Source of the DNA: Eledone cirrhosa
Taxonomy: Eukaryota
Assembly: GCA_964016885.1 (NCBI GenBank)
Contig: OZ024750.1
Coordinates: forward strand, 36,332,001 to 36,396,000
Length of the DNA: 64,000 nucleotides
Direction: 5' to 3'
Shown: piece by piece, positions 12,915-61,600 of the stretch
How the letters are laid out: each line of letters opens with the position of its first letter
Numbering within the stretch: position 1 is the first letter of the stretch
Translations under genes and position numbers: made by a program
Notes under the pieces: generated by a model
What the model was told of the DNA's origin: nothing
Databases searched by the model: none
Seen by the model: the letters and a program-made list of their open reading frames with translations, nothing else

Positions 12915-13260
12915 GGAGGCACATGGCTTAGTGTTTAGAGCATTGGACTTGCAATCGAAAGGTTGTGAGTTCAATTCTCAGACCGGGTGATGTGTTGTTT
13001 CCTTGAGCAAGACACTTTATTTCACATTGCTCCAGTTTACTCAGCTGTAGAAATGAGATGATAGGGACTGGGGTCCCTATCATATCCACTGCAAAGTGGT
13101 TGTGCAGGTGCCACGGCAAAAAAGTACCCTGCACTCACTGTAAATAAGGTTGGTGTTAGGAAGGGCATCCAGCTGTAGAAATCAAGCCAAAATCAGTTCC
13201 CGTCCCACCCTTGCAAGCAGGGAAAAAGCGGACGTAAAATGAAATGATGATGATGATGAT
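12915..13260 (+). mobile_element. SINE family A copy
   Basis: tRNA-like head, CORE-like body and (ATG)n tail, inserted after a (TA)n run. Confidence 0.85.
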
Positions 13261-15283: not shown

Positions 15284-16077
15284 ACTAACAGAAAACACCC
15301 CCTTTCAGGTGGTTTTCTGCTAGCATGTGTAGTGTGTATATTGATATTATACGCAGGTATATATACATGTAGATATGATACATCAAATAAAATCGTAATT
15401 GACAATATACACAGAAATTGTAGAGAGTTTGTGTTACACGCTCTTCTGTAATCAGTAAAGTAATCCATGATACATTAAAAAAAGACGATATTATATATAA
15501 ACTGCATTAGGAGAAAATTAGCGACGGAAATATATGCGATATTTTTATAAGTGTTATAATATAACAGCCACTAACCGGAAGTGTTAACATTTGAAAATGT
15601 TAAAGAAGTGAATCTTTAAATAAACTATAAAATATATTTAATCAACAGCCATGAAATTTAGCACATAAATTATGTAATATTCATTCATTATTTATTCAAA
15701 GGCAAAGTTAACCTCGGCGGGATTTGAACTCAGATCATAGAGTTACCTCCCTGTATGATCTGAGTTCAAATCCCGCCGAGGTTAACTTTGCCTTTCATCC
15801 TTACGGGGTCGATAGAATAAAGTACCAGTAATGTACTGGGTAATTGCTGGCCTTGTGCCAAAAGTAGAAACAATTATTTATTCAAAGGTTAACGTTGCCT
15901 TTCATCCTTACGGGGTCGATAAAATAAAGTACCAGTAATGCACTGGGATAATTGCTGGCCTTGTGCCAAAAGTAGGAACAATTATTTATTCAAAGTAATC
16001 CAACTTATTTTACAAACGGGGTAAAAAAATATAAACTGGACACAGTCCCGCACTCCTTACTTTATTATAGTTAAGAT
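15284..16077 (+). mobile_element. Helitron/Helentron-like non-autonomous element interrupted by SINE B fragments
   Basis: 5' hairpin CTA.CAGAAAAC..GTTTTCTGCTAG and 3' end CTTTATTATAGTTAAGAT. An uninterrupted copy is at 33695-34137. The SINE insert is bracketed by ATTATTTATTCAAAG. Confidence 0.6.
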
Positions 16078-22310: not shown

Positions 22311-22459
22311 CTCTATTCTGCAAAGCATGGCATCCGACCCTCTACTGATACTGCTGATCCACCGCCCTTGCGATGATAATAATAAATGTTTCTACTTTTT
22401 GGCACAAGGCCAGCAATTATTCCAGTATATTACTGATACTTTATTTTATCGACCCCGTG

Positions 22460-24390
22460 AATAATATAGTTAACTTATTAGATGTTATGTTAGAATTAGA
22501 TACTGGCTTATACAGACCATACCACAAGCCAGGTAAGGTTCTGTCTTACATCAACAAAGCATCTAATCACCCTAAATCTACATTTAACTTTATAGTGAGT
22601 AGCATCTCACATAGAATCTTGAGGCTGTCGGCCAACGAGGACCTCTTCGACCAAACTGCCGGCTACTACAACAAAGCACTGGCCGAATCAGGGTATAGCA
22701 GCAAGATTTTGTACATCCAGGATGTCGGCTCTACTAGGCCCCCCCTCCTGCAGGACCAGTCGCACCAATAACCACCACGGCAGTGGACTTGTTAACGGGA
22801 AATATGCAGGTCGAATTAGTAATGTGGCTAGCTTTGGCCAGCATCATAACAACAAGGGTGGTAGGCTAGGGCGACCCCTACATTCGTACCAACTTAGTTC
22901 GGGCAATAGAATTAACAGCAGCCTACTAGAAAAATTCCCCGCGTACAGGCTTAATAATGGTGATGGTATCTTGCCAACACCTACCAGCAAGCATAGGGTA
23001 ACCCAGAGCGGCCCAGCAGGGGGTAGGTTAACACACGGGGCTAATATGAACAGAGCGCAAAATAAGCAGCAGCCCAACCCTCTTGGTAGAAACACCCACC
23101 AGGGCTTAAACGACCGCACCAACCCAACGGTAACAGGGAAACACCGGCGTAATGTCATATGGTTCCTTCCCCCCTACTCTAAGAGTATAGTGTCTAACAT
23201 ATCCAGAATCTTCTTCGATGCCTTAGAGAGGAACTTCCCACCTAATCACAGATACCGAAAAATCCTCAATAAGAATAACATCAAGATATCTTATTCTACT
23301 ACACCGAATTTAGCAGACCTCATAGCACTGAGCAACCACAGTAAGCTCACTAGAATAAAACCAGCCCATAATGCCAACATTGGTGAATATGCTTACCTGG
23401 TTAACCTTAACAATTCTGTGGCCCAGAATAGTAGTGGTAATAGTAACGAAAGTAATTATAGTATTAGCAGTAACGTCTACAATAGCAACACCATAGAGAC
23501 TAACCTCAGCGCCAGTAGGGAGGCTGACGACCAGGTTAGATACCATAGCAGCGATAACAATGGCTGTAGAAGATGCTATAACACGAGCAATAGAAATAGC
23601 ACCGTGCCGTATGACTATAACTACAATAATGCTAACCACAATAATGGCAACAATGGTGATGGTGAAAATGATAGTAATGGGATTAGTAGCAGACCTCACC
23701 ATTCTAGAAATAGCAGCAAAAAACACTGCAATTGCCGATACCCTAACAACTGTCCACTCCAAGGCTACTGTTTGATTAGAAACGTAATCTATAAATGCAC
23801 AGTTACGAGTTTTAATAGCACAAGGTCATACATAGGTGTCACTTCTGAGGAGTTCAAGACTAGATTTAGATCACATCTCCACTCCTTTAAGAATAGGAAA
23901 CTAAGATTCTCTACCTCCCTCGCTAATTATATTACTCAATTAACCGACTCTAACATTAGCTACACCACGCAGTGGGAAATTGTTAACCAAGCAACCCCAT
24001 ATAATTTCAGGAAAAATTGCCAGCTCTGCTTAATGGAGTTATAGTATATAGTACAAGCACCCTAGGAACACATTAATAGTCGGGCCGAAATGCTCATCAA
24101 TTGCAGCCATCGACTGAAGCAATCCTTCTACGGATGGACCCCTGCGCCTGAATAATATCATATCCCTACAGCTCTCTTCATCGGACCCCAGCTTGACCCA
24201 CCTGCAATAGGTTTACCATTGGGCAGTGTCTAATGACACTACCAACCATCCATTGGTTTCCCACCGGGATGCTACGTAGCACCTACTGAGTTAGACTCAC
24301 CCTGCTAAATTCTTCCTTTTTGATGAGTTAGGTTAAAATAAACTTACGAACCTACTGCGTGAACCTGAATAACATCATAGATTAAATAAA
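22460..24390 (+). mobile_element. 5'-truncated Penelope-like retroelement (RT C-terminus, Asn/Ser-rich linker, GIY-YIG endonuclease)
   Basis: LLDVMLEL...YHKP...YINKASNHP (RT thumb); RNVIWFLPPYS...KISYSTTPNL; CNCRYPNNCPLQGYC..RNVIYKC...YIGVTSEEFKTRF...CQLCLME. There is a frameshift at poly-C about 22740 and premature stops after 24041. Confidence 0.92.
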
Positions 24391-36060: not shown

Positions 36061-37218
36061 AATACTTCAGTCTCCCTTTTTAGATCACTATAGGAGAGCC
36101 AATCCCAAGACATTTTAGTCTTTAATTCAAAGGTTTCCCCATGCAATTACTTTTCAATTACTGTTTCACCTCCACAGTAACTCATCTTTTAAACTCTTCT
36201 TTACTTTCCATTTCCCCCTTCCAGGGCCATTACTTCTGAGGAATACAGAAGACGTCTTTCATTACCATTTATCAGGTGGTAATAGGTGATGTTGCATTCT
36301 CAGACAGATTTCTTTATTGCCTTTACTCTCTATTTCCACCCGCTTTCCAGAGCCATTACTTCTGAGACATACAATCAAAGTCTTTCCTTATTATTTATCA
36401 GGTGATAATTAAAGGCCTGCCTATCATTCTTAATAGGTTCTGTAACACTTATCAACCCTCCTCCCCCACCAGTGTATTTCCAACAGTGTACGGCCATTTC
36501 ACACTTACTGAAATTGAGGTTGAGGCAGTCAGGTAGGCTGAGTAGAAAAGAAAGAAAAAATAAATTAAATAAAAAACAGCTCTGTCAGAAATCATCAACA
36601 ACCATACTAACCAATGTGAATCCATGAAATACAATGTCTTCAGAACCAGCAACACTGGGTTGCTTAACAAAGTGTATGAATTGGAGGAGGAAAACCCATG
36701 CAATATTGGATGAACTGGCTTAGAAATAAAGGGTTGTTTTTATTACTTCTGATAATTATGCTTTATATACATAACTATAAACACACATATATCATGATCA
36801 TTGTTTAATGTCCACTTTCCACACTAGCATGTGTTAGACGGGTTGTCTCATTTGAGGCCATGTCCTACTCATATAGAATTATTTCTGGCTAGGTTTCTAC
36901 GATTAGATACCCTTCATAACGACAACCACATTTCCAGTTTGTGCTGGTTGCTTTTTGTCATGACACCTACATGACCACTTTACAGTCTGGTTTGGGTGGT
37001 TTTTGTCATGACACCTACATGACCACTTTACAGTGTGGTTTGGGTGCTTTTTGTCATGACACCTACATGACCACTTTACAGTATATATATATATATATAT
37101 ATATATATAACCCATACTAGCGTGGAAGATGGACGTTAAACGATGATGATGATGATGATATATATATATATATATATATAATATATAAGATCAAAAGATG
37201 GTTAAAGGAGTTCCATGT

Positions 37219-37287
37219 ATTTTATTATGCGCATTTCAAAAACAAACATCATCATGCAATAATATTTGTGTTTTCATCAGATAAAAC
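37219..37287 (-). ncRNA. Minimal type I hammerhead ribozyme (left arm)
   Basis: Reverse complement of 37408-37476. Confidence 0.85.
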
Positions 37288-37407
37288 AGGAGAACATGAT
37301 ATGAAGGCTAAAAGACACTTGTGGATAGTGCAGTTTTAAATCAACATATGTTGATTTAAAACTGCACTATCCACAAGTGTTTTTTAGCCTTCATATCATG
37401 TTCTCCT

Positions 37408-37476
37408 GTTTTATCTGATGAAAACACAAATATTATTGCATGATGATGTTTGTTTTTGAAATGCGCATAATAAAAT
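37408..37476 (+). ncRNA. Minimal type I hammerhead ribozyme (right arm)
   Basis: GTTTTAT-CTGATGA-AAACACAAATATTAT..ATGATGTTTGTTTTT-GAAA-TGCGCA-TA-ATAAAAT. Stem III is palindromic. Confidence 0.85.
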
Positions 37477-38174
37477 ACATGGAACTCCTTTAACCATCTT
37501 TTGATCTTATATATTATGTATACTCCAGTCCTACAAACTGTAGAGTGCTTCTTATCCGATATCTGCATTGCTTTATTGTACTACAATAAAACTCACCTCC
37601 TACATATATATATATATATATATATACATAGAGAGAGAGAGAGTTACAGATTTGAAGATGCACCTAATATTTTTATCATATATATACACACAAATTTACA
37701 GTACACAATAAAAATAAGTTCATACAAAATAAATTGTATTAAAAAATATATATATAGGTGAGTTTTCAGAAATAACAATTTGTTATGTAATTTGTTTTCA
37801 AAGTAGCCTGTTTTGCCGCAATGTTTAAATTTCATGTTCAAGGTTACATTTGTGTTCGTGTTCAGTATAATGGAGGGTGAGTACAGTTTGTTTGGTTGGT
37901 TTAACCCTTTAGCATTTACATTACTCTATATATATTATTATATTTTCACGGTAAACACTTTATCTCACATAATTATCTCACATAATATAGAATCTGAGAT
38001 TTTGATATCTATTTTGAGAAGAATATCTTGACAAAAGTATGAGTGGCCAGTTACAGCTGGTTTGAAAAGAAAGAGGTTAGAGAATTCTAGCCGGATATGG
38101 TCTTTTTAAATGCTAAAGGGTTAAGGTATTTGCTACGGCTTAGTAGACTGATTGGAGAAATAACGGTCTTATTT

Positions 38175-38352
<178 letters not shown>

Positions 38353-38706
38353 GGAATAATTGTCTTATGTTGTTTATTACATAATTATATATATATATTT
38401 ATCAGTATTGAGTACTTTTCTCATATCTGTTAATAATACACAGATACACACACACACACACTCACATATATATATATATATATGAATAAGTGTGTAAGTG
38501 TGGAATCAGATGTAACAAGCAGTAGAGAAGATTGGGCTGGTAAGGACATATGATGTGTATGGATAATGATCGTTGGGTAAAGAAGTGGCAAAAGATCCCA
38601 GTGGAAGGAAGTTGCAGTAGAGGACTGCAGTGAACAGAGGGATGTTGTGCTGGAAAAGATCTATCCAGCCCTGCAAGCATGGAAAAGTGAATGTAAAAGA
38701 TGATGG

Positions 38707-38829: not shown

Positions 38830-39307
38830 ATAATATATATGCAGTAAGAAACACAGTATACCGTGTGTCTAATATTACAAGGGTTGAAAAACCACATTTG
38901 TTTGAAATATTTAACCAAGAAGCAGACAGAATGATAAAATAAAAATATATTATTATACAAACCGCCTCAATAACTATTATATCTCTCAGACAGATTATCC
39001 CTAATCTGTTTCGCCCTGAGTGTGTTTGTAACAGATAATCCTTAGGCATCATCAGCGAGAGAATCAGATTAAATGCAACAAACACTATGTACCAACGTTC
39101 ACACAGAAAGATGAAATTTATCACCTCGTGCGCCGCTAGTCAAACGTGATAAGCGTGTATTGAATAGAAACAACAGTCCAACACACACAACTTAATAAGC
39201 TCGACTTCTGTCTGCTTCTTGGTTAAATATTTCAAACAAATGTGGTTTTTTAACCCTTGTAATATTAGACACACGGTTTACTGTGTTTCTTACTGCATAT
39301 ATATTAT
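38830..39307. repeat. PLE pLTR (minus strand) with an inverted copy of its terminal 100 bp
   Basis: The arms 38830-38931 and 39206-39307 are reverse complements with few mismatches. The spacer holds a hammerhead. Confidence 0.85.
38982..39062 (-). ncRNA. Type I hammerhead ribozyme with full stem III
   Basis: TCTCTCG-CTGATGA-[imperfect stem II]-GAAA-CAGATTA-GGGA-TAATCTG-TC-TGAGAGA. The cleavage site is GUC. Confidence 0.85.
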
Positions 39308-41011: not shown

Positions 41012-42350
41012 GTATTGATACTTTAACATATATCCCGTCCCACCACCCCCACCCCATCCACACCGCCCCCTTCTATGTAAAGTTATGTTGGTGCCACACC
41101 ATCCAGGCCGAAACAAATGAGATCGTGTAGGTGTCACGACAAAAAAACACACAGTCCACGCTGTAATGTGGCCGTGTAGGCAACACGGTAAAAACCTCCC
41201 AGACTCACACTGTAAATGTGGTTGGTGTTAGGAAGGGCATCCAACTGTAGAAAACCTGCCAGACAGTCCTATGCGAGCAAGACAATCACTCTTGCCTCAA
41301 GTGGGAATACCCCCGTCCAAACCCATGCAAGCGTGGAACACGGACGTTAAACGTTGATGATGATGATGATGATGATATACACACATACACACACACACAT
41401 ATATACATAAACACATACATAAATACACATACATACATACATACATATATATATTAACATTAGTTTTTGTAAATTTGGTATTTTTTATGATTGCAATATG
41501 CAAGGCGATCAATTGATATATTCTCTATTGATATTGATTCCATTTTTGCAAATGTAGGTAGTCTAAGTTTTGGTATAATTGCTACAGACAACAAAACCGA
41601 AATTTCAGCTATCACAGGAATGGCTTTTATGTATTTCCTGGAAAATATCATCATTAATAATAAATGAAGAAACAAAAATATATATACACTAGATTTTTTT
41701 CTCATATATAGAAAATGAACTTTTGTGAAAAATATCATTATATAGAACAGCAGCTGCAGTGGAAACATTTTCGAATGACTCATATTTACTATGTTCTTCT
41801 AAATGTATTTTGTTCAGGCAAGCTGAAAAAGCCTACAATTTGTGTTATTTTTATGCAATCTGATTAACTATTTGCAATAGCTGCTATCAAGAAATGTTTT
41901 CTAATTTCCTCGTAAATAAAATACATTCCTTCCATGAATATCAGATAATTGCTTCATAATTGAGTTTCTTGGCTCCTCCTTGTTCTTTTTTTTTTTATAA
42001 TATAATTGGCAGACTAAAAGGAATCAAAGATTTCAGTGAATCGATCCAACATTTCTTTTAGACAGATACAAACAAATTTTCATCAATGTTTTTAAAACTA
42101 TTATTTTCATAAGCAATGGCATTTTAACAATGAAAGGTATTCTTGAGATTTCAAAATAAATAAATAACTTAATTAAAATGATATATATATATCATAATAT
42201 ATATATATATATAATATATGGAAAGTTATATTTAAAATTGTTGGGTTACAACTAGTAAATATTTATAACTGATATAAAAGCACTCGACAAATATTTGGAG
42301 TATATTTACAATATTAAATAAATGGAAAACTATATTTATAAAACCATATT

Positions 42351-42416
42351 TATTTCATTATATATATTTCGGGGATATCATATTAACAATATGCTATGCC
42401 TTCATCAGACAAAATA
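42351..42416 (-). ncRNA. Minimal type I hammerhead ribozyme
   Basis: TATTTTGT-CTGATGA-AGGCATAGCATATT-GTT-AATATGATATCCCC-GAAA-TATATA-TA-ATGAAATA. Confidence 0.75.
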
Positions 42417-43718
42417 CAATATAAACAGTTTTATAGATAAATAGATTCGACATACCGTTATAACACCGACTTCATTTGAAGAGGTTTACGCTGGCAGTGA
42501 AAAAATTTTACACAGAGAGAAAGAAAGAGAGAAAACAGAAAGAAAGATAGAAAACGAAGAAAAGGAAGAAAAAGAAGAGAAAGAGGAAATGCATGGAACA
42601 AAATAGAGAGATGGAAAGATAGATAAAGCGAAGAACTTCATGTAAAGAAACAGAAAGAGATATATATATATATAGAGAGAGAGGAAATAGAGATAGATAC
42701 ATATATATATAGAAAATTAGGTAGTGGGAGGTCATTTTGAGTAAATGTATCAATGATACGTTTATTTATTTATTTATTTATTTAGCTCAAGTATTAATGT
42801 AAGGGAGACATATAGAGAGAGAAAAAAAATATAGAGAGAGGAAAAAAATAGCGAGAGAAAAAAATTAAAAAATATCCAGATATATTCGAGGCGTAAAAAC
42901 CCTATGTTTTAATGTATTAGTATTTATAAAACTTACACTATATTGTAAATATCAGTATTCCTGAATGAGACAAGTATCCAAAATGTGTGAAAATTAATTA
43001 TCTTATGTTTAGTCTTAAAAAAAAATTCATATGTTTATGTGACAGCTACAAACATCCATGCGAATCCAACTGATTCACTCTGCAAACTCTAAGTTCACGG
43101 AAAACATTCTCAATGTGGTATAAAAATTTGAGCATACAAATATGTGTATTATTATTCCTGTCATTACTCTACAAGATTATCTATCAAGCAGAAATAGAGA
43201 GCAGATTTCAATATACTAATAAAAATATATATCATAAACAAAACTAAAAATAAAAAGATAACAATAATAATAATAAGTAAAAATATAGAATATAGAATAG
43301 AAAACTAAAAAAATAGAAAACTAAAAAAATATTACGAAAGAATATTACATAATAAAAATATTATATATTAAACATACTACGTATTAAAAAATATTACGTA
43401 TTAAAAATTTACATATTAAAGATATTAAAAATAAAAATAAAATAAAAAATAAAAAATATTATAGAATACTACAATAATAAAAATAAAAATAAAAATAAAT
43501 AAAAAATAAATAAAAATAAAAATAAACCACAAAGATCAACCCTTCAAAGTTAATTGACAATATATTGCCAAGTTCATTACAAGACAAAGCCAAAAATTAT
43601 CTATCAAATCACATCTAGCAAAGATCATTTCAAAAAGATTATGATGTCCAATTAGGTCTACATATGTTCTTATATTTAATATAGAAGTTTATCTAGTGTA
43701 AGGTTTATTCAAAAAATT

Positions 43719-44078
43719 TGTAATGTTAATACTGACTCTAATTCTTTTAACTACGTCGGTTCCACATCGACGGAATTTAAACTTCGCTATAATAACCACA
43801 AGAATTCTTTCACAGATCCAAGTAAAAAATCTTCAACGGCACTATCAGGCGTACTCTGGCAACTTAAGCTAGATAACGTTAGATATTCGACGGCTTGGAA
43901 TATAGTCTCAAGAGGGATTCCTTTTAATTCAGCCTCTGAGACATGTGACCTCTGCGCAGAGGAGATATTCTTTATACTAAAATCTAAAAATTCCCTTAAC
44001 CTACGGACAAATTTATTCAGTTGTTGCAAACATAGATTAAACTCAACGTTTAAATATAAATTTAAATTTAAAATGTAG
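43719..44078 (+). pseudogene. PLE GIY-YIG endonuclease C-terminal fragment (no start codon, absent from the ORF track)
   Basis: CNVNTDSNSFNYVGSTSTEFKLRYNNHKNSF...STALSGVLWQLK...CDLCAEE...LNLRTNLFSCCKHR...M*, an uninterrupted frame. Confidence 0.9.
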
Positions 44079-45547
44079 TATATTTAGTTTGATTTATATT
44101 TATATGGGAAACTAGCCGATAAATTTTTTATTCCTAAATCTTTGATTCCTTCTTTTTACTCTTTTTTTATTGTTTATTTTTATTTTTATTTTATTTTTAT
44201 CTAAACATTCCTCATGAAAAATTAAGCTACCCTAAAAGCTGATGCTCCAAATTTTTTGAATAAACCTTACACTAGATAAACTTCTATATTAAATATAAGA
44301 ACATATGTAGACCTAATTGGACATCATAATCTTTTTGAAATGATCTTTGCTAGATGTGATTTGATAGATAATTTTTGGCTTTGTCTTGTAATGAACTTGG
44401 CAATATATTGTCAATTAACTTTGAAGGGTTGATCTTTGTGGTTTATTTTTATTTTTATTTATTTTTTATTTATTTTTATTTTTATTTTTATTATTGTAGT
44501 ATTCTATAATATTTTTTATTTTTTATTTTATTTTTATTTTTAATATCTTTAATATGTAAATTTTTAATACGTAATATTTTTTAATACGTAGTATGTTTAA
44601 TATATATTTTTATTATGTAATATTCTTTCGGAATATTTTTTTAGTTTTCTATTTTTTTAGTTTTCTATTCTATATTCTATATTTTTACTTATTATTATTA
44701 TTGTTATCTTTTTATTTTTAGTTTTGTTTATGATATATATTTTTATTAGTATATTGAAATCTGCTCTCTATTTCTGCTTGATAGATAATCTTGTAGAGTA
44801 ATGACAGGAATAATAATACACATATTTGTATGCTCAAATTTTTATACCACATTGAGAATGTTTTCCGTGAGCTTAGAGTTTGCAGAGTGAATCAGTTGGA
44901 TTCGCATGGATGTTTGTAGCTATCACATAAACATATGAATTTTTTTTAAAACTAAACATAAGATAATTAATTTTCACACATTTTGGATACTTGTCTCATT
45001 CAGGAATACTGATATTTACAATATAGTGTAAGTTTTATAAATACTAATACATTAAAACATAGGGTTTTTACGCCTCGAATATATCTGGATATTTTTTAAT
45101 TTTTTTCTCTCGCTATTTTTTTCCTCTCTCTATATTTTTTTTCTCTCTCTATATGTCTCCCTTACATTAATACTTGAGCTAAATAAATAAATAAATAAAT
45201 AAACGTATCATTGATACATTTACTCAAAATGACCTCCCACTACCTAATTTTCTATATATATATGTATCTATCTCTATTTCCTCTCTCTCTATATATATAT
45301 ATATCTCTTTCTGTTTCTTTACATGAAGTTCTTCGCTTTATCTATCTTTCCATCTCTCTATTTTGTTCCATGCATTTCCTCTTTCTCTTCTTTTTCTTCC
45401 TTTTCTTCGTTTTCTATCTTTCTTTCTGTTTTCTCTCTTTCTTTCTCTCTGTGTAAAATTTTTTCACTGCCAGCGTAAACCTCTTCAAATGAAGTCGGTG
45501 TTATAACGGTATGTCGAATCTATTTATCTATAAAACTGTTTATATTG

Positions 45548-45612
45548 TATTTTGTCTGATGAAGGCATAGCATATTGTTAATATGATATCCCCGAAATAT
45601 ATATAATAAATA
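45548..45612 (+). ncRNA. Minimal type I hammerhead ribozyme
   Basis: Same motif as 42351-42416, with a small deletion in the 3' strand of stem I. Confidence 0.7.
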
Positions 45613-45894
45613 TGGTTTTATAAATATAGTTTTCCATTTATTTAATATTGTATATATATAATATATATATATATAATATATATATATATATATCAGGGTG
45701 GTGGATTGGCAGTATTGGTAGAGGGTCAGACGCCATGCTTTGACGTATAGAGTTTATCATTCTGAGTTCAAAACCCGCCAAGGTTACCTTTGCCTTTCAT
45801 CCTTACGGGGTCGATAAAATAAAGTACCAGTAATGCACTGGGTAATTGCTGGCCTTGTGCCTAAAGTAGAAACAATTATATATATATATAAATA

Positions 45895-47610: not shown

Positions 47611-48215
47611 AGTTAAATACAGTGTTTACCTCTGATCAAATAATCCGAATACTGGAGGTTTTACATTGGTATTTATAGATACAACAGAGAATCAAAACAA
47701 TAACATCAATAATAAAAGATAATAATAAAGAAGTAAAGAAGTTAGAATGAAGATGATAAAGATGTAAAAATTAAGTAAAAAAATAATAAGTACAGAATAC
47801 GATTGCTGATAATAGTGGTGGTGATTAAAGTTACGGTGGTGGGTAAGTATATGTGTAAAGATTTGGTGAGGGTAGAGATAATACTATCATGAAAGGAAAC
47901 ATTAAATACATACATATGTAGTGGTCAAATCTCAGAGGGTTAGAGTAGAAAATAAAACATAGTAATAAATGACAGTTAAAAGATAATAAATTAAAAATTA
48001 AGTGAGAGAAGAGATACAGGACAGGAGACAGGGATGGGGGTGGCGATATGATAAGATGATAAGATGATACATGTGATAAATGTCTGGCAGGCTGATTGTC
48101 AGGCTGAGAGTGAAAGAAAGGTTATGAGATTTATGATGTTGATTTAGTGACCAGTTGGGGTCAGTTGACAGCTATTTAACAGTGGGGTGGTATGTGTATA
48201 TATGTATATATGTGT

Positions 48216-50766
48216 ATATAGAGGGAGAGTGGGAATTTCTGAAAGCAAACCTGCTGTTGGCGACAGACGAGGTCTGTGGCTGGAGCAGGCCTGTAGGCAG
48301 GAGGAGAGTAACATGGTGGTGGAACAGTAAGGTGGAGGGGTCAATTAAGGCCAAAAAGCAGGCTTGGAAAGTATGGCGGGATGGGGGAAGTAGAGAGGAC
48401 TATCAAGTGGCCAGGAGGGAAGCTAGGAGACAAGTGTACTTAGCAAGAAGGGAAGCTGAGGAAAGAAAGTTCAAGCATGTTCTACAACGCGATGACCAAA
48501 AACGTGAGGTGTTCAGGATTGCTAGGCAATGCGTCAAGGAAAACCGTGATATTGTCGGGGAGAAGTGTGTACTAAACGACGATGGCACACTTGCCATCAC
48601 CGACGCTGATAAGAAGGTAGCTTGGAAGTGTCACTATGAAAGGCTTCTAAATGAGGAGAATAATTGGGAGAAAGGCAGTCTCCCCCATATCGACCCAATA
48701 GAGGGACCAGCAGTGTTAGTCGAGGGGAGTATAATAAGTAAGGCAATCAAGGATATGAAGACTGGTAAGGCGGCTGGGCCTTCGGAAATAGTTGCTGAGA
48801 TGCTGAAGGCATCTGGCACGGTGGGACACACCATGGTCACCCGCATAGTTAACCAAGTCGTACAAAACGGGGTTGTTCCGAAGGACTGGCATAGCAGCAT
48901 CATCGTTAACTGTTATAAGGGTAAAGGAGACGCCCTAGATAGGAGTAACTATAGAGGCATTAAATTAATCGACCAGGTCATGAAGGTCACGGAAAGAGTA
49001 ATAGCGCAACTAATCAGAGAGAGAATTGACCTAGATGAAATGCAGTTCGGGTTTGTGTCAGGCAAAAGTACCACAGACGCTCTTTTCATAGTACGACAAC
49101 TACAAGAGAAGTACCTAGCTAAAGGTAAACCCCTCTACTTAGCTTTTGTCGACTTGGAGAAAGCCTTCGACAGAGTCCCCCGCTCCATTATCTGGTGGGC
49201 TCTTAGAAAACTAGGCGTTGACGAATGGCTTGTGAGGGCTATACAAGCCATGTATAAAGAAACAGTCAGCAAGGTTAGAATTAACAACGAATATAGTGAA
49301 GAGTTTAGCGTAAAAGTCGGCGTCCATCAGGGCTCTGTTCTCAGTCCACTACTATTTATTATTGCCCTTCAGGCCATAACAGAGGAGTTCAAGACAGGCT
49401 GCCCATGGGAACTCCTATACGCAGACGACCTGACACTCATAGCGGAATCAATGGCCGAGCTAGAGAAGAAATTCCAAACATGGAAGCACGGCCTAGAGTC
49501 AAAAGGACTTAAAATTAACCTGGCTAAGACCAAAGTACTAGTTTGTAGGAAAGAAAACAAGGCGGCGGTCCCTTCTGGGAAATGGTCGTGCTCGGTGTGT
49601 AGGAAAGGCGTAGGTAGAAACTCCATTTTATGTCCTAAATGCAAAGTATGGGTGCATAAAAGATGTAGTGGGATCACAGGTAGGCTAACTAAGAACATAG
49701 ATTTTACATGTGGCCGGTGCTCTGGTGCAATAAGTAGCAGCAAGTGCCCACAAACTACTAGCTCTTTCAATTGCGCAGAGGGTTCTATAGAAATAGTGGA
49801 CAGCTTCCGTTACCTGGGCGATAAAATCAGCAGTGGGGGAGGGTGCTCTGAAAGTACTGTAGCTAGAGTCAGAACTGGTTGGAAAAAGTTCAGAGAGCTT
49901 ATACCACTATTAGCTGCTAAAGGGTTCTCACTAAAAATGAAAGGCAGGTTGTACGATGCCTGCATACGAACAGCAATGCTGCATGGCAGTGAGACCTGGG
50001 CATTGTGTGCAGAGGATATATGCAGACTAGAGAGGAACGAAGCTTGCATGCTCCGCTGGATGTGTAACAGTAATATACGTGAACGGCAAAGCATAAACGA
50101 ACTAAGGAATAAATTAGAGATAAGAGGGATCAGATGTTGTTTACTCGAGAGAAGGCTACGTTGGTATGGACACGTGATGCGCATGAAAGTCGATAGCTGT
50201 ATAACAAAGTGCAGGGCAATAAAGATAGACGGTAGTCACGGAATAGGCAGACCTAGAAAAACCTGGGACGAGCTGATAAACTCCGACATCACACACTTAC
50301 ACCTCTCCAAGACAATGTCACTGGACCGAGACCTTTGGCGGTACTCAGTAACAGAGAAGACCCGCCTTACCTAAATATATAGTAAAACCTACTCCAGCCA
50401 GTAGGCATCTCTAACAAATACACCCCGTCCCACCACCCCCACCCGATCCACACCACCCCGTTCTATGTAAAGTTATGTTGGTGCCGCGCCATCGAGGCCG
50501 AAACAAATGAGATCGTGTAGGTGTCACGACAAAAAAACACACAGTCCACGCTGTAATGTGGCCGTGTAGGCAACACGGTAAAAACCTCCCAGACCCACAC
50601 TGTAAATGTGGTTGGTGTTAGGAAGGGCATCCAACTGTAGAAAACCTGCCAGACAGTCCTATGCGAGCAAGACAATCACTCTTGCCTCAAGTGGGACTAC
50701 CCCCGTCCAAACCCATGCAAGCGTGGAACACGGACGTTAAACGTTGATGATGATGATGATGATGAT
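48216..50766 (+). mobile_element. Young 5'-truncated RTE LINE (RT and PHD-like finger intact)
   Basis: ORF 48155-50374 is nearly identical to the 59076 ORF from IEGEWEF onward. It has the YADD motif, a 3' UTR and an (ATG)n tail. Confidence 0.96.
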
Positions 50767-50774
50767 ATACATAT

Positions 50775-50937
50775 ATAAAAACAAATAACGAAACGAAATT
50801 AAATTTCGTTTCGTTTGTAACTCACTTTTGTATGACTGACGCTTAAACAATTAAGTTAAAATTGTTTAAGCTTCATTCATATAAAAGTGAGTTACAAACG
50901 AAACGAAATTTAATTTCGTTTCGTTATTTGTTTTTAT
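50775..50937. repeat. Nested palindrome upstream of a hammerhead
   Basis: Inverted arms of about 75 bp, each containing its own hairpin AACGAAACGAAAT..ATTTCGTTTCGTT. Confidence 0.9.
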
Positions 50938-51063: not shown

Positions 51064-51108
51064 AATATTGCTGATGAGATGTAACAACATCGAAACTAGT
51101 CCAATATT
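51064..51108 (+). ncRNA. Canonical minimal type I hammerhead ribozyme
   Basis: AATATTG-CTGATGA-GATGT-AACA-ACATC-GAAA-CTAG-TC-CAATATT. Stems I and II are perfect, stem III is palindromic and the site is GUC. Confidence 0.92.
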
Positions 51109-51360: not shown

Positions 51361-53547
51361 TAAAATAAAGTTAAATAAAAGTCAAATGATTAAAATTTAG
51401 CTTCGTTTATTACTGCTATATATATTTCAGTGACAGCCATCTTTGGCTGTGACCTCTTCAGGCAGTTTGAATTAGTATGGTATAGACAAGTACATATGTT
51501 GTTTAGGTGTATGATATTGTCAATACTCTGATATGCCCAGTTCCTTGTTGGGTTGTTAATTCACTGGGGAACTGGAGTCATATGAATTCAAACAAACGAA
51601 TTTCAGTGTCACAGGTCCCCTTCTCCTCTCATTGGTCAGTTATTTGAACATTCCTCATTCTAAGTGTTGTTATTGTTGGAGTTAGCTTAAAAATTGATAA
51701 AATGGTAGAAGGGACAAGGTGTTAAAGGAACAAAATAACAAAATAACAAAAAAAGTGTCAAACTTCCCATTGTTCAGTTCTGAGAGCATTCCTCAGTCAG
51801 AAGTCTATAGAATTCTTTCTGGGGTGAGGCTCCCTGTAGTGTTTTTGCCTGCTATTGTTCAGTACATTTGACCTCCACCATTATTTTGGTACTGTTGTTG
51901 TTGTAGTGGTCAGCTTATATCTTGCTGCTGCTGCTAACAATTTAGAAGTATCCAGTTTGTGTTTTTTCTTCATCCCTCCCGCCACCATCGTAGTGGTGGT
52001 GGTGGGGGGGGGGGGGGTTCTTTCATGTATATGAAGAAATATATGGCAATAAATGAAGAAAATAGAAAATAAATAAATAATATAATAAAGTAATTAATAT
52101 AATTTGTGTAATTTGAAAATAAATAAATAAATAGAGAATAAAGAATAAAGAGTAAATGAGAGATTGGTGAAAAAGTAATGATAATGTATATGGAGAGGTG
52201 AGAAATAATGTAGGATAAAGTGTGTGTGTGTGTGCTATAACCAATCTCAAGGTCAGAATATGTTGGATAGATTGGTATGAGACAAGATGTTAAGATGAGA
52301 TATTCAATGTGTTTGTGTTATAATCTATCTCAACTTAAAATAAATATAAGATGATACAGTGAAGAGGGCAGAAAACAGAAAACAAATTAATAAAGAGAAA
52401 TCAAGATTTAAGATTGGAACTTGAAAGTCAGAAATCTGGTAAATTAAAAGTGTTTGTGTTATAGATGTTGGCCAAATTATTATGGCTGTGTCCGATTCTA
52501 TCTCTAGGCTATCATGGTGTCTGCTCTGCCTGGGTTGTTCCCTGTGGCTTGAGGGGAGTTCACAACCTAGGGTGTTGTTATTGCCCATATAGCTTGAGGG
52601 AGGTCTGGCCGAGAGGTGTTTTCATGTTCTGTAGAAGTCCCTATAGCTTGAGGGGAGTTCACATCTTCTTGTGTTGCTACTGTCCATATATCTTGAGAAA
52701 GGTGCCGGCTCTAAGGTGTCTGCATGTCCCGAAGAAGTCGGTTCTGAGGTTTATCAGGCCGCTTCCACCTCTTAATATCTCGAGGGTCTCGTTCAGGCAT
52801 AGTTTGCATATGCAAGATCCCCCTTTATCGGGTGGTACTTTCCTGATTATGTACCAGACCAGAGAGTATGGGGTCCTGTCCAGCTTAAGCTTCCAGATCA
52901 GGTCGGAGAGAGCTGTGCTTTTCCTTTTGGACTCCTTCTTGAATGAATGGCGATGGTTGTACCAGCGGTCCTTAAAGCTCGTTGATGTGGGTCCTATGTA
53001 GAGGTGTTCGGAGTTGGGGGTTTTAACCCGACAACCATACACTAGGTTCTTCTTGAGACATTCATTACCAAGGGGGCATGATTTGGGGTTTCTGCAGTTG
53101 CAGAGGGTGGTCGGCCTCTGCGTGCCTAGATTAGGGTTCTCATTATGTGTTACATGTTGGTCTTCCCCCATGCTCGGTGGGGGGTCCTTGGGTCTGTTTG
53201 TGTTTCTTGGGTGGGCTCTGGGTCCCCTCTTCCCTCATTTCACATGGTTCTGCTGAGTGTTTGTATTGCCATCTTCTGGTTGTGTGTGTTTTTTAAGCCT
53301 ACTTCTGTTGATGCTAGCTATGTGTTGGGCCAAATTTCTCGTGGTGGAATACGAAATCTTCACAGTGTGTCTGTTGAAGATCCTGTGGTATCTGTGGTCC
53401 CTCGGGAAGCATTTGTCAAGTGCTCCAAAGAATAATCGGGCCAAGCTTTTCTTTAGGGCCGCTGAGTAGGGTGGGTTGTACCACGTGATTTGTCGGTGTC
53501 TTCTCCTATATGTGTGGGTTGGGGGCTTCGTGATTTGTTGGAGATTT
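51361..53547 (-). mobile_element. Penelope-like element 3' portion (left arm of 4.4-kb palindrome)
   Basis: ORFs 53235-53567 and 52677-53171 mirror those of the right arm. Confidence 0.93.
51412..51466 (-). ncRNA. Minimal type I hammerhead ribozyme
   Basis: Reverse complement of 55616-55670. Confidence 0.85.
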
Positions 53548-55721
53548 GAAGCCCCCAACCCACACATATAGGAGAAGACACAGACAAATCACGTGGTACA
53601 ACCCACCCTACTCAGCGGCCCTAAAGAAAAGCTTGGCCCGATTATTCTTTGGAGCACTTGACAAATGCTTCCCGAGGGACCACAGATACCACAGGATCTT
53701 CAACAGACACACTGTGAAGCTTTCGTATTCCACCACGAGAAATTTGGCCCAACACATAGCTAGCATCAACAGAAGTAGGCTTAAAAAACACACACAACCA
53801 GAAGATGGCAATACAAACACTCAGCAGAACCATGTGAAATGAGGGAAGAGGGGACCCAGAGCCCACCCAAGAAACACAAACAGACCCAAGGACCCCCCAC
53901 CGAGCATGGGGGAAGACCAACATGTAACACATAATGAGAACCCTAATCTAGGCACGCAGAGGCCGACCACCCTCTGCAACTGCAGAAACCCCAAATCATG
54001 CCCCCTTGGTAATGAATGTCTCAAGAAGAACCTAGTGTATGGTTGTCGGGTTAAAACCCCCAACTCCGAACACCTCTACATAGGACCCACATCAACGAGC
54101 TTTAAGGACCGCTGGTACAACCATCGCCATTCATTCAAGAAGGAGTCCAAAAGGAAAAGCACAGCTCTCTCCGACCTGATCTGGAAGCTTAAGCTGGACA
54201 GGACCCCATACTCTCTGGTCTGGTACATAATCAGGAAAGTACCACCCGATAAAGGGGGATCTTGCATATGCAAACTATGCCTGAACGAGACCCTCGAGAT
54301 ATTAAGAGGTGGAAGCGGCCTGATAAACCTCAGAACCGACTTCTTCGGGACATGCAGACACCTTAGAGCCGGCACCTTTCTCAAGATATATGGACAGTAG
54401 CAACACAAGAAGATGTGAACTCCCCTCAAGCTATAGGGACTTCTACAGAACATGAAAACACCTCTCGGCCAGACCTCCCTCAAGCTATATGGGCAATAAC
54501 AACACCCTAGGTTGTGAACTCCCCTCAAGCCACAGGGAACAACCCAGGCAGAGCAGACACCATGATAGCCTAGAGATAGAATCGGACACAGCCATAATAA
54601 TTTGGCCAACATCTATAACACAAACACTTTTAATTTACCAGATTTCTGACTTTCAAGTTCCAATCTTAAATCTTGATTTCTCTTTATTAATTTGTTTTCT
54701 GTTTTCTGCCCTCTTCACTGTATCATCTTATATTTATTTTAAGTTGAGATAGATTATAACACAAACACATTGAATATCTCATCTTAACATCTTGTCTCAT
54801 ACCAATCTATCCAACATATTCTGACCTTGAGATTGGTTATAGCACACACACACACACTTTATCCTACATTATTTCTCACCTCTCCATATACATTATCATT
54901 ACTTTTTCACCAATCTCTCATTTACTCTTTATTCTTTATTCTCTATTTATTTATTTATTTTCAAATTGCACAAATTATATTAATTACTTTATTATATTAT
55001 TTATTTATTTTCTATTTTCTTCATTTATTGCCATATATTTCTTCATATACATGAAAGAACCCCCCCCCCCCCCCCACCACCACCACCACTACGATGGTGG
55101 CGGGAGGGATGAAGAAAAAACACAAACTTGATACTTCTAAATTGTTAGCAGCAGCAGCAAGATATAAGCTGACCACTACAACAACAACAGTACCAAAATA
55201 ATGGTGGAGGTCAAATGTACTGAACAATATCAGGCAAAAACACTACAGGGAGCCTCACCCCAGAAAGAATTCTGTAGACTTCTGACTGAGGAATGCTCTC
55301 AGAACTGAACAATGGGAAGTTTGACACTTTTTTTGTTATTTTGTTATTTTGTTCCTTTAACACCTTGTCCCTTCTACCATTTTATCAATTTTTAAGCTAA
55401 CTCCAACAATAACAACACTTAGAATGAGGAATGTTCAAATAACTGACCAATGAGAGGAGAAGGGGACCTGTGCCACTGAAATTCGTTTGTTTGAATTCAT
55501 ATGACTCCAGTTCCCCAGTGAATTAACAACCCAACAAGGAACTGGGCATATCAGAGTATTGACAATATCATACACCTAAACAACATATGTACTTGTCTAT
55601 ACCATACTAATTCAAACTGCCTGAAGAGGTCACAGCCAAAGATGGCTGTCACTGAAATATATATAGCAGTAATAAACGAAGCTAAATTTTAATCATTTGA
55701 CTTTTATTTAACTTTATTTTA
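53548..55721 (+). mobile_element. Penelope-like element 3' portion (right arm): linker, GIY-YIG endonuclease, long 3' UTR, pLTR
   Basis: RQITWYNPPYS...K(L/I)SYSTTRNL; CNCRNPKSCPLGNEC..NLVYGC...LYIGPTSTSFKDRWYNH...CKLCLNE...CRH. Confidence 0.93.
55616..55670 (+). ncRNA. Minimal type I hammerhead ribozyme
   Basis: ACTGC-CTGAAGA-GGTcACAGCCA-AAGA-TGGCTGTcACT-GAAA-TATATA-TA-GCAGT, followed immediately by AATAAA. Confidence 0.85.
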
Positions 55722-55859
55722 CACTACTCCGGAGTAACCAAACCAACCTGCGCACTTCGTCGAGTGCTCCAGCCTGCATACTGAGGTGTTGGTATACAAC
55801 CAACATAAACTCAAAATCTATATATAGATATATATAGATATATATATAGATATATATAC

Positions 55860-58664: not shown

Positions 58665-61600
58665 TAGCTAGCTACCCCCCCACCCCCACGCACCACCATT
58701 GCTACTACGTGGACCAATCATAAAACAGAGCCCCCACGCATCACCAGTATTATTACGCGGACCAATCAGAAGCCAGAGGCCTATACTATCGCTTGCCTGG
58801 TTGCCTTTCGATATATGATGGATGGATGGACTGCGGAATCCTGGAGAGTGGAGGAGAGAGAGAGAAAAATCTGGACGCTCAGCGACAATGCCAAAGATAA
58901 AGACAAATTCACCTCTTGGACGAGAATGCGAGCACTCCTCATTGTTTCGACCGCGGACGGCTAACATAACCCCATCGCCCCCCACCGCCCCCAACCCCCA
59001 AACGCAATCCAAAACTTCAGAGTTGGTACCATAAATGTAGGCACCCTAAAGGGTCGCGCTAACGAGGTTGTAGAAATGCTTGAACGTAAGGAGGTCGATG
59101 TTTGTTGTATTCAAGAGACCAGGTGGAGGGGTGGGTCTGCTAGGTTCATTGAGGGTAAAAAACGATGTTATAAGCTTTTCTGGGTGGGAAACGACGATGG
59201 GCTGGGTGGAGTAGGAATCATGGTAGCAGAAAAGTGGGCAGATAAGATAATAGACGTAAATAGAGTGAACGACAGAATAATTAAAATACGACTTGTCCTC
59301 AATAGAACTACGGTGACAGTAATATCTGCGTACGCACCCCAATCCGGACTGCCCGGCACTATAAAAGACAGATTCTATGAGACACTGATGCTAACTACCT
59401 CCCAAATATCCGACAGTGACTATATAATTATCGCAGGCGACCTAAATGGTCACGTTCGACAACATTGTGACGGCTACGACGAAATCCATGGAGGCTATGG
59501 GTTTGGTACTAGAAATGAGGAAGGCTCCAGAATCCTGGAATTCTGTGATGCAAATAACCTAACTATCTGTAACACTAACTTCAAAAAACGTGACAATCAC
59601 CTGATCACCTATAGATCCGGGGAACACACAAGCCAGGTAGATTATATCCTTACCAGAAGATGTGACAGAGTGTCTGTTGTAAACACTAAATCCCTCCCCC
59701 ATGAAGAATGCACCTCCCAACATAGACTGATAATTAGCGACCTCATAGTCAGGACGAGACGTACTCGACAGCAGAAGAGGACTATCCTCAGGAGAAAAAT
59801 ATGGAAGCTAAAGGACCCCACAGCCAGGAATAAATTTCAAAGCATATTACTTGATGCTTTCGACAGTAAGGAAGAACATTTAGAGTCGGACAATATAGAG
59901 GGAGAGTGGGAATTTCTGAAAGCAAACCTGCTGTTGGCGACAGACGAAGTCTGTGGCTGGAGCAGGCCTGTAGGCAGGAGGAGAGTAACATGGTGGTGGA
60001 ACAGTAAGGTGGAGGGGTCAATTAAGGCCAAAAAGCAGGCTTGGAAAGTATGGCGGGATGGGGGAAGTAGAGAGGACTATCAAGTGGCCAGGAGGGAAGC
60101 TAGGAGACAAGTGTACTTAGCAAGAAGGGAAGCTGAGGAAAGAAAGTTCAAGCATGTTCTACAACGCGATGACCAAAAACGTGAGGTGTTCAGGATTGCT
60201 AGGCAATGCGTCAAGGAAAACCGTGATATTGTCGGGGAGAAGTGTGTACTAAACGACGATGGCACACTTGCCATCACCGACGCTGATAAGAAGGTAGCTT
60301 GGAAGTGTCACTATGAAAGGCTACTAAATGAGGAGAATAAATGGGAGAAAGACAGTCTCCCCCATATCGACCCAATAGAGGGACCAGCAGTGTTAGTCGA
60401 GGGGAGTATAATAAGTAAGGCAATCAAGGATATGAAGACGGGTAAGGCGGCTGGGCCTTCGGAAATAGTTGCTGAGATGCTGAAGGCATCTGGCACGGTG
60501 GGACACACCATGGTCACCCGCATAGTTAACCAAGTCGTACAGAATGGGGTTGTTCCGAAGGACTGGCATAGCAGCATCATCGTTAACTGTTATAAGGGTA
60601 AAGGAGACGCCCTAGATAGGAGTAACTATAGAGGCATTAAATTAATCGACCAGGTCATGAAGGTCACGGAAAAAGTAATAGCGCAACTAATCAGAGAGAG
60701 AATTGACCTAGATGAAATGCAGTTCGGGTTTGTGTCAGGCAAAAGTACCACAGACGCTCTTTTCATAGTACGACAACTACAGGAGAAGTACCTAGCTAAA
60801 GGTAAACCCCTCTACTTAGCTTTTGTCGACTTGGAGAAAGCCTTCGACAGAGTCCCCCGCTCCATTATCTGGTGGGCTCTTAGAAAACTAGGCGTTGACG
60901 AATGGATTGTGAGGGCTATACAAGCCATGTATAAAGAAACAGTCAGCAAGGTTAGAATTAACAACGAATATAGTGAAGAGTTTAGCGTAAAAGTTGGCGT
61001 CCATCAGGGCTCTGTTCTCAGCCCACTACTATTTATTATTGCCCTTCAGGCTATAACAGAGGAGTTCAAGACAGGCTGCCCATGGGAACTCCTATACGCA
61101 GACGACCTGACACTCATAGCGGAATCAATGGCCGAGCTAGAGAAGAAATTCCAAACATGGAAGCACGGCCTAGAGTCAAAAGGACTTAAAATTAACCTGG
61201 CTAAGACCAAAGTACTAGTTTGTAGGAAAGAAAACAAGGCGGCGGTCCCTTCTGGGAAATGGTCGTGCTCGGTGTGTAGGAAAGGCGTAGGTAGAAACTC
61301 CATTTTATGTCCTAAACGCAAAGTATGGGTGCATAAAAGGTGTAGTGGGATCACAGGTAAGCTAACTAAGAACATAGATTTTACATGTGGCCGGTGCTCT
61401 GGTGCAATAAGTAGCAGCAAGTGCCCACAAAATACTAGCTCTTTCAATTGCGCAGAGGGTTCTATAGAAATAGTGGACAGCTTCCGTTACCTGGGCGATA
61501 AAATCAGCAGTGGGGGAGGGTGCTCTGAAAGTACTGTAGCTAGAGTCAGAACTGGTTGGAAAAAGTTCAGAGAGCTTATACCACTATTAGCTGCTAAAGG

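What the first reader, a model, noticed from the sequence alone, without database searches (positions are those of the whole stretch)
37178..37517. Spacerless 340-bp palindrome made only of two back-to-back hammerhead units
Seen: a near-perfect palindrome centred on CATATG with no coding sequence. Both strands therefore encode essentially the same hairpin RNA with one hammerhead. Inference: it is either the minimal product of PLE snap-back priming at a short self-complementary site, or a non-autonomous retrozyme-like element. It is also cruciform-prone DNA that has nonetheless persisted.
Basis: partly seen in the sequence, partly recalled or inferred. Interest (0 to 1): 0.72.

Follow-up and report, generated by a model that had tools for sequence, protein, structure and literature searches.

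The report
Head-to-head mini Penelope-element insertion
The 340-base palindrome is two copies of a short, abundant, non-coding repeat set head to head, most likely a freeloader on Penelope-like jumping genes; it shares with them a small tail motif, predicted to fold as a bulged hairpin, that may be the signal their enzyme reads.

Summary
The palindrome is real: 37178-37517, 169 of 170 pairs, centre CATATG, one minimal hammerhead per strand pointing outwards. It is not the whole element. An 86-nt tail (37518-37603) follows the right arm only, and arm plus tail form an abundant repeat family in 4 of 4 runs laid, one from a second species. Two protein-coding Penelope-like (Hydra-type) insertions in the window have the same plan: head to head, hammerhead near each end, one-sided tail, (TA)n target. 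All three tails open with TACTCC...GAGTGCT (3 hits, 0.08 expected); published Hydra consensi carry the same layout with a G-C for A-U swap (read by eye). In other copies one arm starts at CATATG (17 of 21 listed junctions) while its partner is cut variably, so the mirror arm is likely built at each insertion. I favour two cDNAs annealed at CATATG over snap-back. It is no retrozyme at this locus: the ribozymes lie on opposite strands and a read-through RNA buries them. The architecture is published, and this scan met similar palindromes in a shark genome. The tail motif and the fixed-start mini element were not found in 9 paper searches.

The parts
37178..37347 (-). Left (short, tail-less) arm; sense on the minus strand; ends directly in (TA)n
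   Evidence: other copies end in (TA)n at the matching place, 37512-37522 of the right arm (table 7)
37348..37517 (+). Right arm; sense on the plus strand
37345..37350 (.). CATATG: self-complementary centre and usual 5' start of the unit
   Evidence: 17 of 21 listed junctions have one arm starting at 37345-37351
37407..37477 (+). Minimal type I hammerhead: stem I 37407-37414 with 37470-37477, core 37415-37421, stem II 37422-37457, GAAA 37458-37461, palindromic stem III 37462-37467, predicted cut after A37469
   Evidence: variants; activity untested
37218..37288 (-). Mirror copy of the hammerhead
37518..37603 (+). One-sided 86-nt tail, part of the repeat family, not host flank
   Evidence: covered at high depth in 4 of 4 runs up to 37593; 37594-37652 was skipped by the tool as repeat
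37521..37549 (+). Tail motif TACTCC...GAGTGCT; predicted bulged hairpin ACUC/GAGU, 2-nt bulge, inner hairpin CAGU/ACUG
   Evidence: predicted pairing probability only 0.31-0.42
37572..37590 (+). Second predicted hairpin near the tail end (8 bp)
37158..37177 (.). (AT)n target, left side, behind the (GAT)n end of an unrelated repeat
37604..37626 (.). (AT)n target, right side
42214..45658 (.). Comparator P2: head-to-head Hydra-type PLE, arms 1420 bp, GIY-YIG fragment in the asymmetric centre, tail on the arm that is cut shorter at the centre
51361..55819 (.). Comparator P3: head-to-head Hydra-type PLE, arms about 2180 bp, 18-nt spacer, GIY-YIG frames, tail on the right arm

Best explanation
The palindrome plus its one-sided tail is a single insertion of a roughly 260-nt non-coding repeat, likely a non-autonomous passenger of Hydra-clade Penelope-like retroelements, whose two arms were probably made as two cDNAs primed from nicks on opposite strands of a (TA)n tract and then likely joined by annealing of their self-complementary CATATG ends. 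Steps: (shown) unit = CATATG start, hammerhead, short end about 50 nt after the cut site, 86-nt tail; abundant; inserted in (TA)n; centres differ between copies. (Inferred from the in vitro work on anole PAc, a different clade) the PLE protein nicks and extends both strands and starts reverse transcription at two internal sites, which gives one arm with and one without the tail. (Inferred) the bulged hairpin at the start of the tail is the binding or positioning signal, since the short arm stops 3-4 nt before it in three unrelated families. (Inferred) both cDNAs come from one RNA or one source locus, as the arms are 99% alike in a family that is far more varied. When both run to the RNA's 5' end, 6-nt annealing gives a perfect palindrome; when one stalls, the centre is lopsided. 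The hammerhead is a pLTR passenger that would need a dimer or protein help; at this locus it is probably silent.
For: Same plan in 3 of 3 elements that carry the tail motif: cut site to TACTCC 51, 56, 59 nt; motif to (TA)4 83, 89, 94 nt; tail on one arm only. Motif 3 hits vs 0.08 expected; structural descriptor 3 vs 0.04. Neighbours are Hydra-type: CxCX5C linker, CxxC and CxH, relatives with RWK/RWR and DKT (CxCX5C in 108 of 150 hits; DK[TS] in 6 of 8 long hits, DKG in 0 of 8). Published Hydra consensi, read by eye: layout exact in 3 of 6, one mismatch in 1, not testable in 1, not found in 1; outer pair G-C there, A-U here. Family and tail in 4 of 4 runs. 17 of 21 listed junctions have one arm starting within 37345-37351, 1.25 expected; 4 of the 17 partners start inside the tail; 8 of 17 start at 37443-37460, the 3' base of hammerhead stem II (p 0.001; 6 of 14 distinct places, p 0.02), as expected for stalls on folded RNA. 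Junction inserts of 1-22 letters, one a templated repeat of the arm end (table 5c), fit end joining. P2: the tail arm lacks 529 nt that the other arm has, and that arm lacks the tail. Energies. Both-strand extension, two start sites and a predicted dimer for PAc.
Against: No autonomous partner of this family was found; the link to Hydra PLEs rests on plan and motif, not on alignable sequence. The motif was defined after seeing the three tails, and its predicted pairing is modest (0.31-0.42; tail folding z -1.5 to -1.9). Some copies run on upstream of CATATG with a shared sequence (9 contigs in X1, 249 reads in X21), so the unit may be a preferred break point of a longer element. The junction list is a tool-chosen part (46 joints and 4 rows of 5c not shown) and can only show joints whose two sides lie in the reference. 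Near-identical arms fit fold-back copying as well. P2's asymmetry could be a later deletion. Which P3 arm is longer could not be decided (57.5 vs 55.2 bits), and one reading leaves a natural 8-9-bp hairpin at its centre, which suits snap-back. Part of the 37443-37460 cluster has ATAT/ATG microhomology and needs no stall.
Confidence: 0.6

Rival explanations
1. Snap-back (first reader; akin to the self-priming idea of Arkhipova 2013): one cDNA, primed at the tail end, reaches CATATG, folds on itself and copies itself back to the short end.
For: Arms 99-99.4% alike in all three elements; perfect spacerless centre; head-to-head palindromic junctions were read as self-priming in PMC3846280; one reading of the P3 centre has a natural short hairpin.
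Against: Fold at CATATG is a 1-bp hairpin, +2.5 kcal/mol. A self-copy cannot give the shorter arm a tail that the longer arm lacks, as in P2. 4 of 17 partner arms start inside the tail.
Confidence: 0.2
2. The palindrome is the unit: read-through hairpin RNA with a free tail is copied whole, and lopsided centres come later from cruciform centre breaks and repair.
For: Near-symmetric centres recur: two in the second species, one in X1 with 22 letters centred on CATATG (tables 4, 5c, 7). The tail would stay unpaired in such an RNA (by construction). Centre-break deletion of palindromes is known (recalled, no call).
Against: Those recurring centres differ from each other; in the RAD run 327 reads have loose ends before 37345-37346 against a depth of 389 at 37345 (few loci, and PCR disfavours palindromes); partner ends cluster at RNA stems; one arm stays intact within 6 nt in 17 of 21 junctions.
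Confidence: 0.1
3. The family is a non-LTR retrozyme: tandem arrays elsewhere make linear and circular RNAs of about 280 nt, and this locus is a by-product.
For: Unit size in the 170-400 nt range; type I hammerhead; one head-to-tail joint (37346 to 37510; 1 contig, 78 reads) and a shared upstream extension in some copies; retrozymes are argued to derive from pLTRs.
Against: No tandem array at this locus; minimal, not canonical, hammerhead; a cut at 37469 does not explain starts at 37345; 1 of the 15 listed joints is head-to-tail.
Confidence: 0.07
4. Assembly or fold-back read artefact at this locus.
For: No listed contig or read spans the locus.
Against: Arms differ at one base; the left arm ends where other copies end; only one arm has the tail; the same plan occurs in other families and inverted joints stand in several runs.
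Confidence: 0.03

Closest known systems
Hydra clade of C-terminal-endonuclease Penelope-like elements (Craig et al. 2021, PMC8557442)
   Same: Hammerhead near the 3' end, insertion in (TA)n, inverted 5'-truncated copy at the 5' side (noted there for Penelope-13_HM), one-sided tail; tail motif visible in their consensi; neighbours P2 and P3 have the clade's endonuclease marks.
   Different: No ORF; about 260 nt; fixed 5' start; tail 86-98 nt, not 30-40; the tail hairpin is not mentioned in the passages read.
Head-to-head Penelope insertions with palindromic junctions (Arkhipova et al. 2013, PMC3846280)
   Same: Inverted pLTRs, palindromes at the junction, optional tail on one arm, AT-rich targets.
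   Different: Here the whole insertion is two pLTR-sized units with no body; that paper proposes self-priming, this report favours two cDNAs.
Minimal hammerheads of metazoan PLEs (Cervera and De la Pena 2014, PMC4209133)
   Same: Type I, long helix II, small palindromic helix III, expected to act as a dimer with low activity.
   Different: The two copies lie on opposite strands, so they cannot dimerise within one transcript.
Non-LTR retrozymes of animals (PMC7229834; bioRxiv 10.64898/2026.07.22.740005)
   Same: Non-coding, 170-400 nt size class, type I hammerhead, PLE-related.
   Different: Inverted pair, not a tandem; no monomer bounded by two cuts; RNA circles not shown.
Anole PAc Poseidon element in vitro (Frangieh et al. 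2024, PMC11167929)
   Same: Two reverse-transcription start sites defining a tail; AT-rich target; both strands extended.
   Different: Other clade; there the start sites lie in an AC-rich stem-loop inside the ORF; joining of the two cDNAs was not shown.

Membership tests
Hydra-clade PLE (autonomous) | Single ORF with RT (RWK, DKT) and C-terminal GIY-YIG with CxCX5C linker, no CCHH | tested here: not met
   No ORF over 30 aa on the sense strand. Met in part by neighbours P2, P3 and the fragment at 22.4-24.1 kb.
Hydra-clade PLE insertion architecture | Hammerhead near the 3' end | tested here: met
   cut site about 50 nt from the short end, as in P2, P3 and locus L001
Hydra-clade PLE insertion architecture | Insertion into (TA)n | tested here: met
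   loose ends
PLE insertion architecture | Inverted copy adjacent at the 5' end (head to head) | tested here: met
PLE insertion architecture | Tail on one end only (30-40 bp as published) | tested here: met
   One-sided in 3 of 3; length 86-98 nt, longer than published
PLE insertion architecture | Target-site duplication | tested here: inconclusive
   Both ends lie in (TA)n; no empty site was seen
Non-autonomous PLE derivative | Many dispersed copies with a defined unit and no coding capacity | tested here: met
   4277 contigs laid in X1, summed depth about 0.4-1.7 million on the right arm vs 6-67 on the right flank; start at 37345-37351 in 17 of 21 junctions. Copy number not measured; some copies extend upstream.
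Non-autonomous PLE derivative | Mobilised in trans by an autonomous partner | not testable with these tools
   No genome held; inferred from the shared tail motif
Minimal type I hammerhead | Conserved core, helices I-II, palindromic helix III | tested here: met
   8 of 10 listed substitutions in stems I-II keep pairing, the one listed core change is at the free N7; two changes seen only in X21 break stem III; 52 rows not shown
Minimal type I hammerhead | Self-cleavage (as dimer or with protein) | not testable with these tools
   needs an assay
Non-LTR retrozyme | Tandem same-strand repeats, each with a hammerhead | tested here: not met
   one head-to-tail joint elsewhere in the family
Non-LTR retrozyme | Expressed linear and circular RNA of unit length | not testable with these tools
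   needs RNA data or a blot
MITE or foldback DNA transposon | Two equal inverted termini, constant outer ends | tested here: not met
   Tail on one end only; two kinds of outer end; variable inner junction

The most novel reading that the evidence does not exclude
Hydra-clade Penelope elements carry a conserved bulged RNA hairpin (RCUC, inner hairpin, 2-nt bulge, GAGY-RCU) at the start of the tail that loads the enzyme and sets its start sites; a 260-nt non-coding parasite keeps only this signal and a hammerhead, reaches thousands of copies, and is written into the genome as two cDNAs from one RNA joined head to head, seeding long-hairpin RNA substrates at each insertion.
Probability: 0.35. 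Interest if true: 0.7.

Novelty: new variant of a known kind. Interest (0 to 1): 0.45.

Why it matters
How PLEs make their inverted, tailed insertions is still open: the papers read call for further mechanistic work. A short, abundant family with a fixed start gives many natural products of one reaction, and the two models make opposite predictions on which arm carries the tail. The tail hairpin is a concrete candidate for the RNA signal of a whole clade and can be tested by mutation and compensatory rescue. The palindrome itself is an expected product of known PLE architecture.

Tried and rejected
No own genome is held, so copy number, empty sites and an autonomous partner could not be looked up. 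Rfam: only two tRNA-like hits at gathering score; hairpin-type microRNA matches at the centre are below threshold and follow from any palindrome. Protein search by shared words found nothing; the full scan did. Metagenome scan gave 2 loci: L001 is a Hydra-like end with hammerhead running into (TA)n but no tail, L002 is unrelated; viral contigs gave none. Pfam GIY-YIG hits of P2 and P3 are below cut-off (E 0.054, 0.003), and 5 long relatives had no RT hit. No Pol III A or B box in the unit (consensus recalled). MAFFT does not align the three tails well, so no covariance model was built. The longer arm of P3 is undecidable. Thermodynamic folding alone does not support the hammerhead (z -0.34; stem I probability 0.05-0.07 in the single unit with tail). 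A shared CAACATATGT in P3's end region was judged chance. Earlier-finding look-ups by place, by sequence and by the motif gave nothing.

Full report
Observation. The stretch 37178-37517 is a palindrome with 169 of 170 pairs matched, no spacer, and centre CAT|ATG. Each strand carries one type I hammerhead reading outwards: core 37415-37421, stem II to 37457, GAAA, palindromic stem III UGCGCA, predicted cut after A37469, 8-bp stem I. A relaxed descriptor finds 6 cores in the window against 0.005 in shuffles. Rfam does not see it, and folding energy alone is unremarkable. Support comes from variants in other copies (40 rows shown, 52 not): 8 of 10 substitutions in stems I and II keep the pair, the one core change is at the free position 7, while two changes seen only in the RAD run break stem III. 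An RNA through the whole palindrome folds into one 168-bp hairpin (-276.8 kcal/mol) with zero probability for the ribozyme stems.

Setting. The window is AT-rich animal DNA packed with repeats, RTE-type reverse transcriptases and microsatellites; it looks like octopus DNA (recalled resemblance, not tested). No genome is held.

The element is larger than the palindrome. The left arm ends in (AT)n; the right arm is followed by 86 nt (37518-37603) and then (AT)n. Laying 4 of the 23 listed runs shows arm and tail to be one abundant family. In X1, 4277 contigs were laid, with summed depth of about 0.4-1.7 million on the right arm and 0.5-0.9 million on the tail, against 6-67 on the right flank. The tool warns that this is no copy number, and overlapping short contigs inflate it; thousands of copies is a fair reading. 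The family is also in X4, in the RAD run X21 (4825 reads) and in X5, a second species. Many copies end in (TA)n at 37512-37522. X1 may be the sample behind the window. No listed piece spans the whole locus.

Two coding relatives in plan. The window holds two more head-to-head elements, P2 (42214-45658) and P3 (51361-55819), with GIY-YIG frames reading outwards. Their endonucleases have the marks that Craig et al. give for the Hydra clade: CxCX5C linker (P3 and the 22-24 kb fragment), CxxC and CxH. P3's 150 best relatives have CxCX5C in 108 cases; of the 8 long ones, 6 have DK[TS], 4 RW[KRQ], 0 DKG. Both elements have a hammerhead near each outer end, lie in (TA)n and have a tail on one arm only. 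The three elements share no alignable sequence beyond motifs.

A shared tail motif. All three tails open, 3-4 nt after the end of the short arm, with TACTCC...GAGTGCT. The pattern occurs 3 times in the window, 0.08 expected; with the hammerhead in front, 3 times, 0.00 expected. It reads as RCUC, an inner hairpin of 4-6 bp, a 2-nt bulge and GAGY-RCU; this descriptor hits the same 3 places, 0.04 expected. The pattern was made after seeing the tails, so these figures overstate its significance. An independent check, by eye, in the six Hydra consensi of File S7 of PMC8557442: the layout is exact 38-43 nt after the cut site in Hydra-2_Amil and Hydra-2_Ajap, exact twice at the 5' start of Hydra-1_Ajap, present with one mismatch in Hydra-1_Crog, not testable in Hydra-1_Amil (ends before it) and not found in Hydra-1_Obim. 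There the outer pair is G-C where ours is A-U, and the inner hairpins differ in sequence but pair. Predicted pairing in our unit is only 0.31-0.42. None of the 40 listed substitution rows falls in the tail. I found no description of this motif in 9 searches; the library lacks most subscription papers and Repbase notes.

Centres of other copies. From tables 5 and 5c I took 21 head-to-head junctions, leaving out one head-to-tail joint and one row that repeats another contig's depth; 46 joints and 4 rows were not shown by the tool. In 17 of 21, one arm starts at 37345-37351 (1.25 expected if uniform; 0 of 200,000 simulations) and the partner starts anywhere from 37401 to 37573. Eight of the 17 partners start at 37443-37460, the 3' base of stem II (p 0.001; 6 of 14 distinct places, p 0.02); four start inside the tail. 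Inserts of 1-22 letters sit at several joints. Near-symmetric centres recur but differ from each other. So the unit usually starts at CATATG, and the mirror arm is likely made at each insertion. Against a strictly fixed unit: 9 contigs in X1 and 249 reads in X21 run on upstream of CATATG with a related sequence. Only joints with both sides in the reference can be seen.

Mechanism. For anole PAc, Frangieh et al. report nicking and extension of both target strands, two internal start sites that define the tail, a predicted dimer, and no need for ribozyme cleavage. Applied here (inference across clades): two cDNAs are primed on opposite strands of (TA)n, one from the tail end and one from the short end just before the tail hairpin, and meet head to head. 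Two full-length cDNA ends both read CATATG and can anneal (-4.4 kcal/mol), whereas snap-back there needs a 1-bp hairpin (+2.5); both routes give the same sequence. P2 speaks for two cDNAs: the tail arm lacks 529 nt held by the other arm, which lacks the tail, with a 2-nt overlap at the joint. A later deletion could mimic this, and P3 could not be decided. Arms 99% alike point to one template or one source locus, and also fit fold-back. I put two cDNAs at 0.6, snap-back at 0.2, palindrome as unit with later centre breaks at 0.1, retrozyme by-product at 0.07, artefact at 0.03. That the locus is a PLE-type insertion holds under the first four.

Comparison. Head-to-head insertions with palindromic joints, one-sided tails, minimal hammerheads and (TA)n targets are published. 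It works like a Hydra-clade PLE end; it is not an autonomous member (no ORF) and fails the tandem test for retrozymes. This scan noted similar small palindromes in a shark genome (e1-7858806). New here, as far as searched: a fixed-start non-coding family, tails of 86-98 nt, and the tail motif.

Papers seen. PMC8557442: passages, section 11, supplement parts 1, 2, 52, 53 of 59 and one term search in the supplement. PMC11167929: passages and the whole main-text section; its supplements were not read and may bear on start sites. PMC3846280, PMC4209133, PMC7229834, PMC13282606: passages (the last has no mention of ribozymes or palindromes). bioRxiv 10.64898/2026.07.22.740005: part 1 of 5; supplements closed.

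Verdict. Real, and explained in kind by known PLE biology; a new variant. Interest 0.45.

Noticed in passing
window 42214-45658 and 51361-55819: Two long head-to-head Hydra-type PLE insertions with 99% identical arms of 1.4 and 2.2 kb; P3 has only an 18-nt spacer. Both have 3' regions of about 1.3-1.6 kb after the endonuclease frame.
   Followed up: yes
window 38830-39307: A fourth head-to-head element: 102-nt inverted arms (98%), a hammerhead with a long canonical stem III at 39055 (-), right end in (TA)n, no TACTCC tail motif.
   Followed up: partly
window 38291-38395: Hammerhead-like stump that starts right after a 110-nt (AT)n run; the 5' strand of stem I is missing; ends about 50 nt later in (TA)n.
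   Followed up: partly
window 50775-50937 and 51071-51101: 163-nt imperfect palindrome (93%) next to (AT)n, followed by a compact type I hammerhead with palindromic stem III CTAG; the palindrome does not include the ribozyme.
   Followed up: no
window 15698-15795: 98-nt palindrome (92%) inside a common short repeat.
   Followed up: no
window 22358-24150: Broken Hydra-type PLE fragment with an asparagine-rich stretch between the RT end and the endonuclease linker, like the N-rich inserts described in rotifer PLEs.
   Followed up: partly
window 37310-37312, run X4: One contig of depth 5.4 shows three adjacent A>G changes absent from X1 and X21; it would fit A-to-I editing of hairpin RNA, but the run's type is not on record and it may be an allele.
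   Followed up: no
window 37242-37253 and 37450-37453 (loose ends): Related subfamilies with other stem II sequences before the same GAAA-UGCGCA-UA; one X1 contig has a much shorter arm around a CATATG centre (37286 to 37409).
   Followed up: no
window 37345 upstream (loose ends): The shared upstream extension faintly resembles the end of the tail, which would make a tandem unit of about 280 nt; too weak to call.
   Followed up: no
window 58965-62051, 48143-50374: Nearly intact RTE-type LINE ORF (1028 aa) with a PHD-like finger, and a second truncated copy.
   Followed up: no
window 10517-10573 and 12924-12981: tRNA-like heads inside a 640-bp repeat pair in inverted orientation, likely a tRNA-derived SINE.
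   Followed up: no
L001 291-850: Hydra-like PLE 3' end in a metagenome contig: endonuclease, hammerhead, end in (TA)n about 30 nt after the cut site, no tail.
   Followed up: partly
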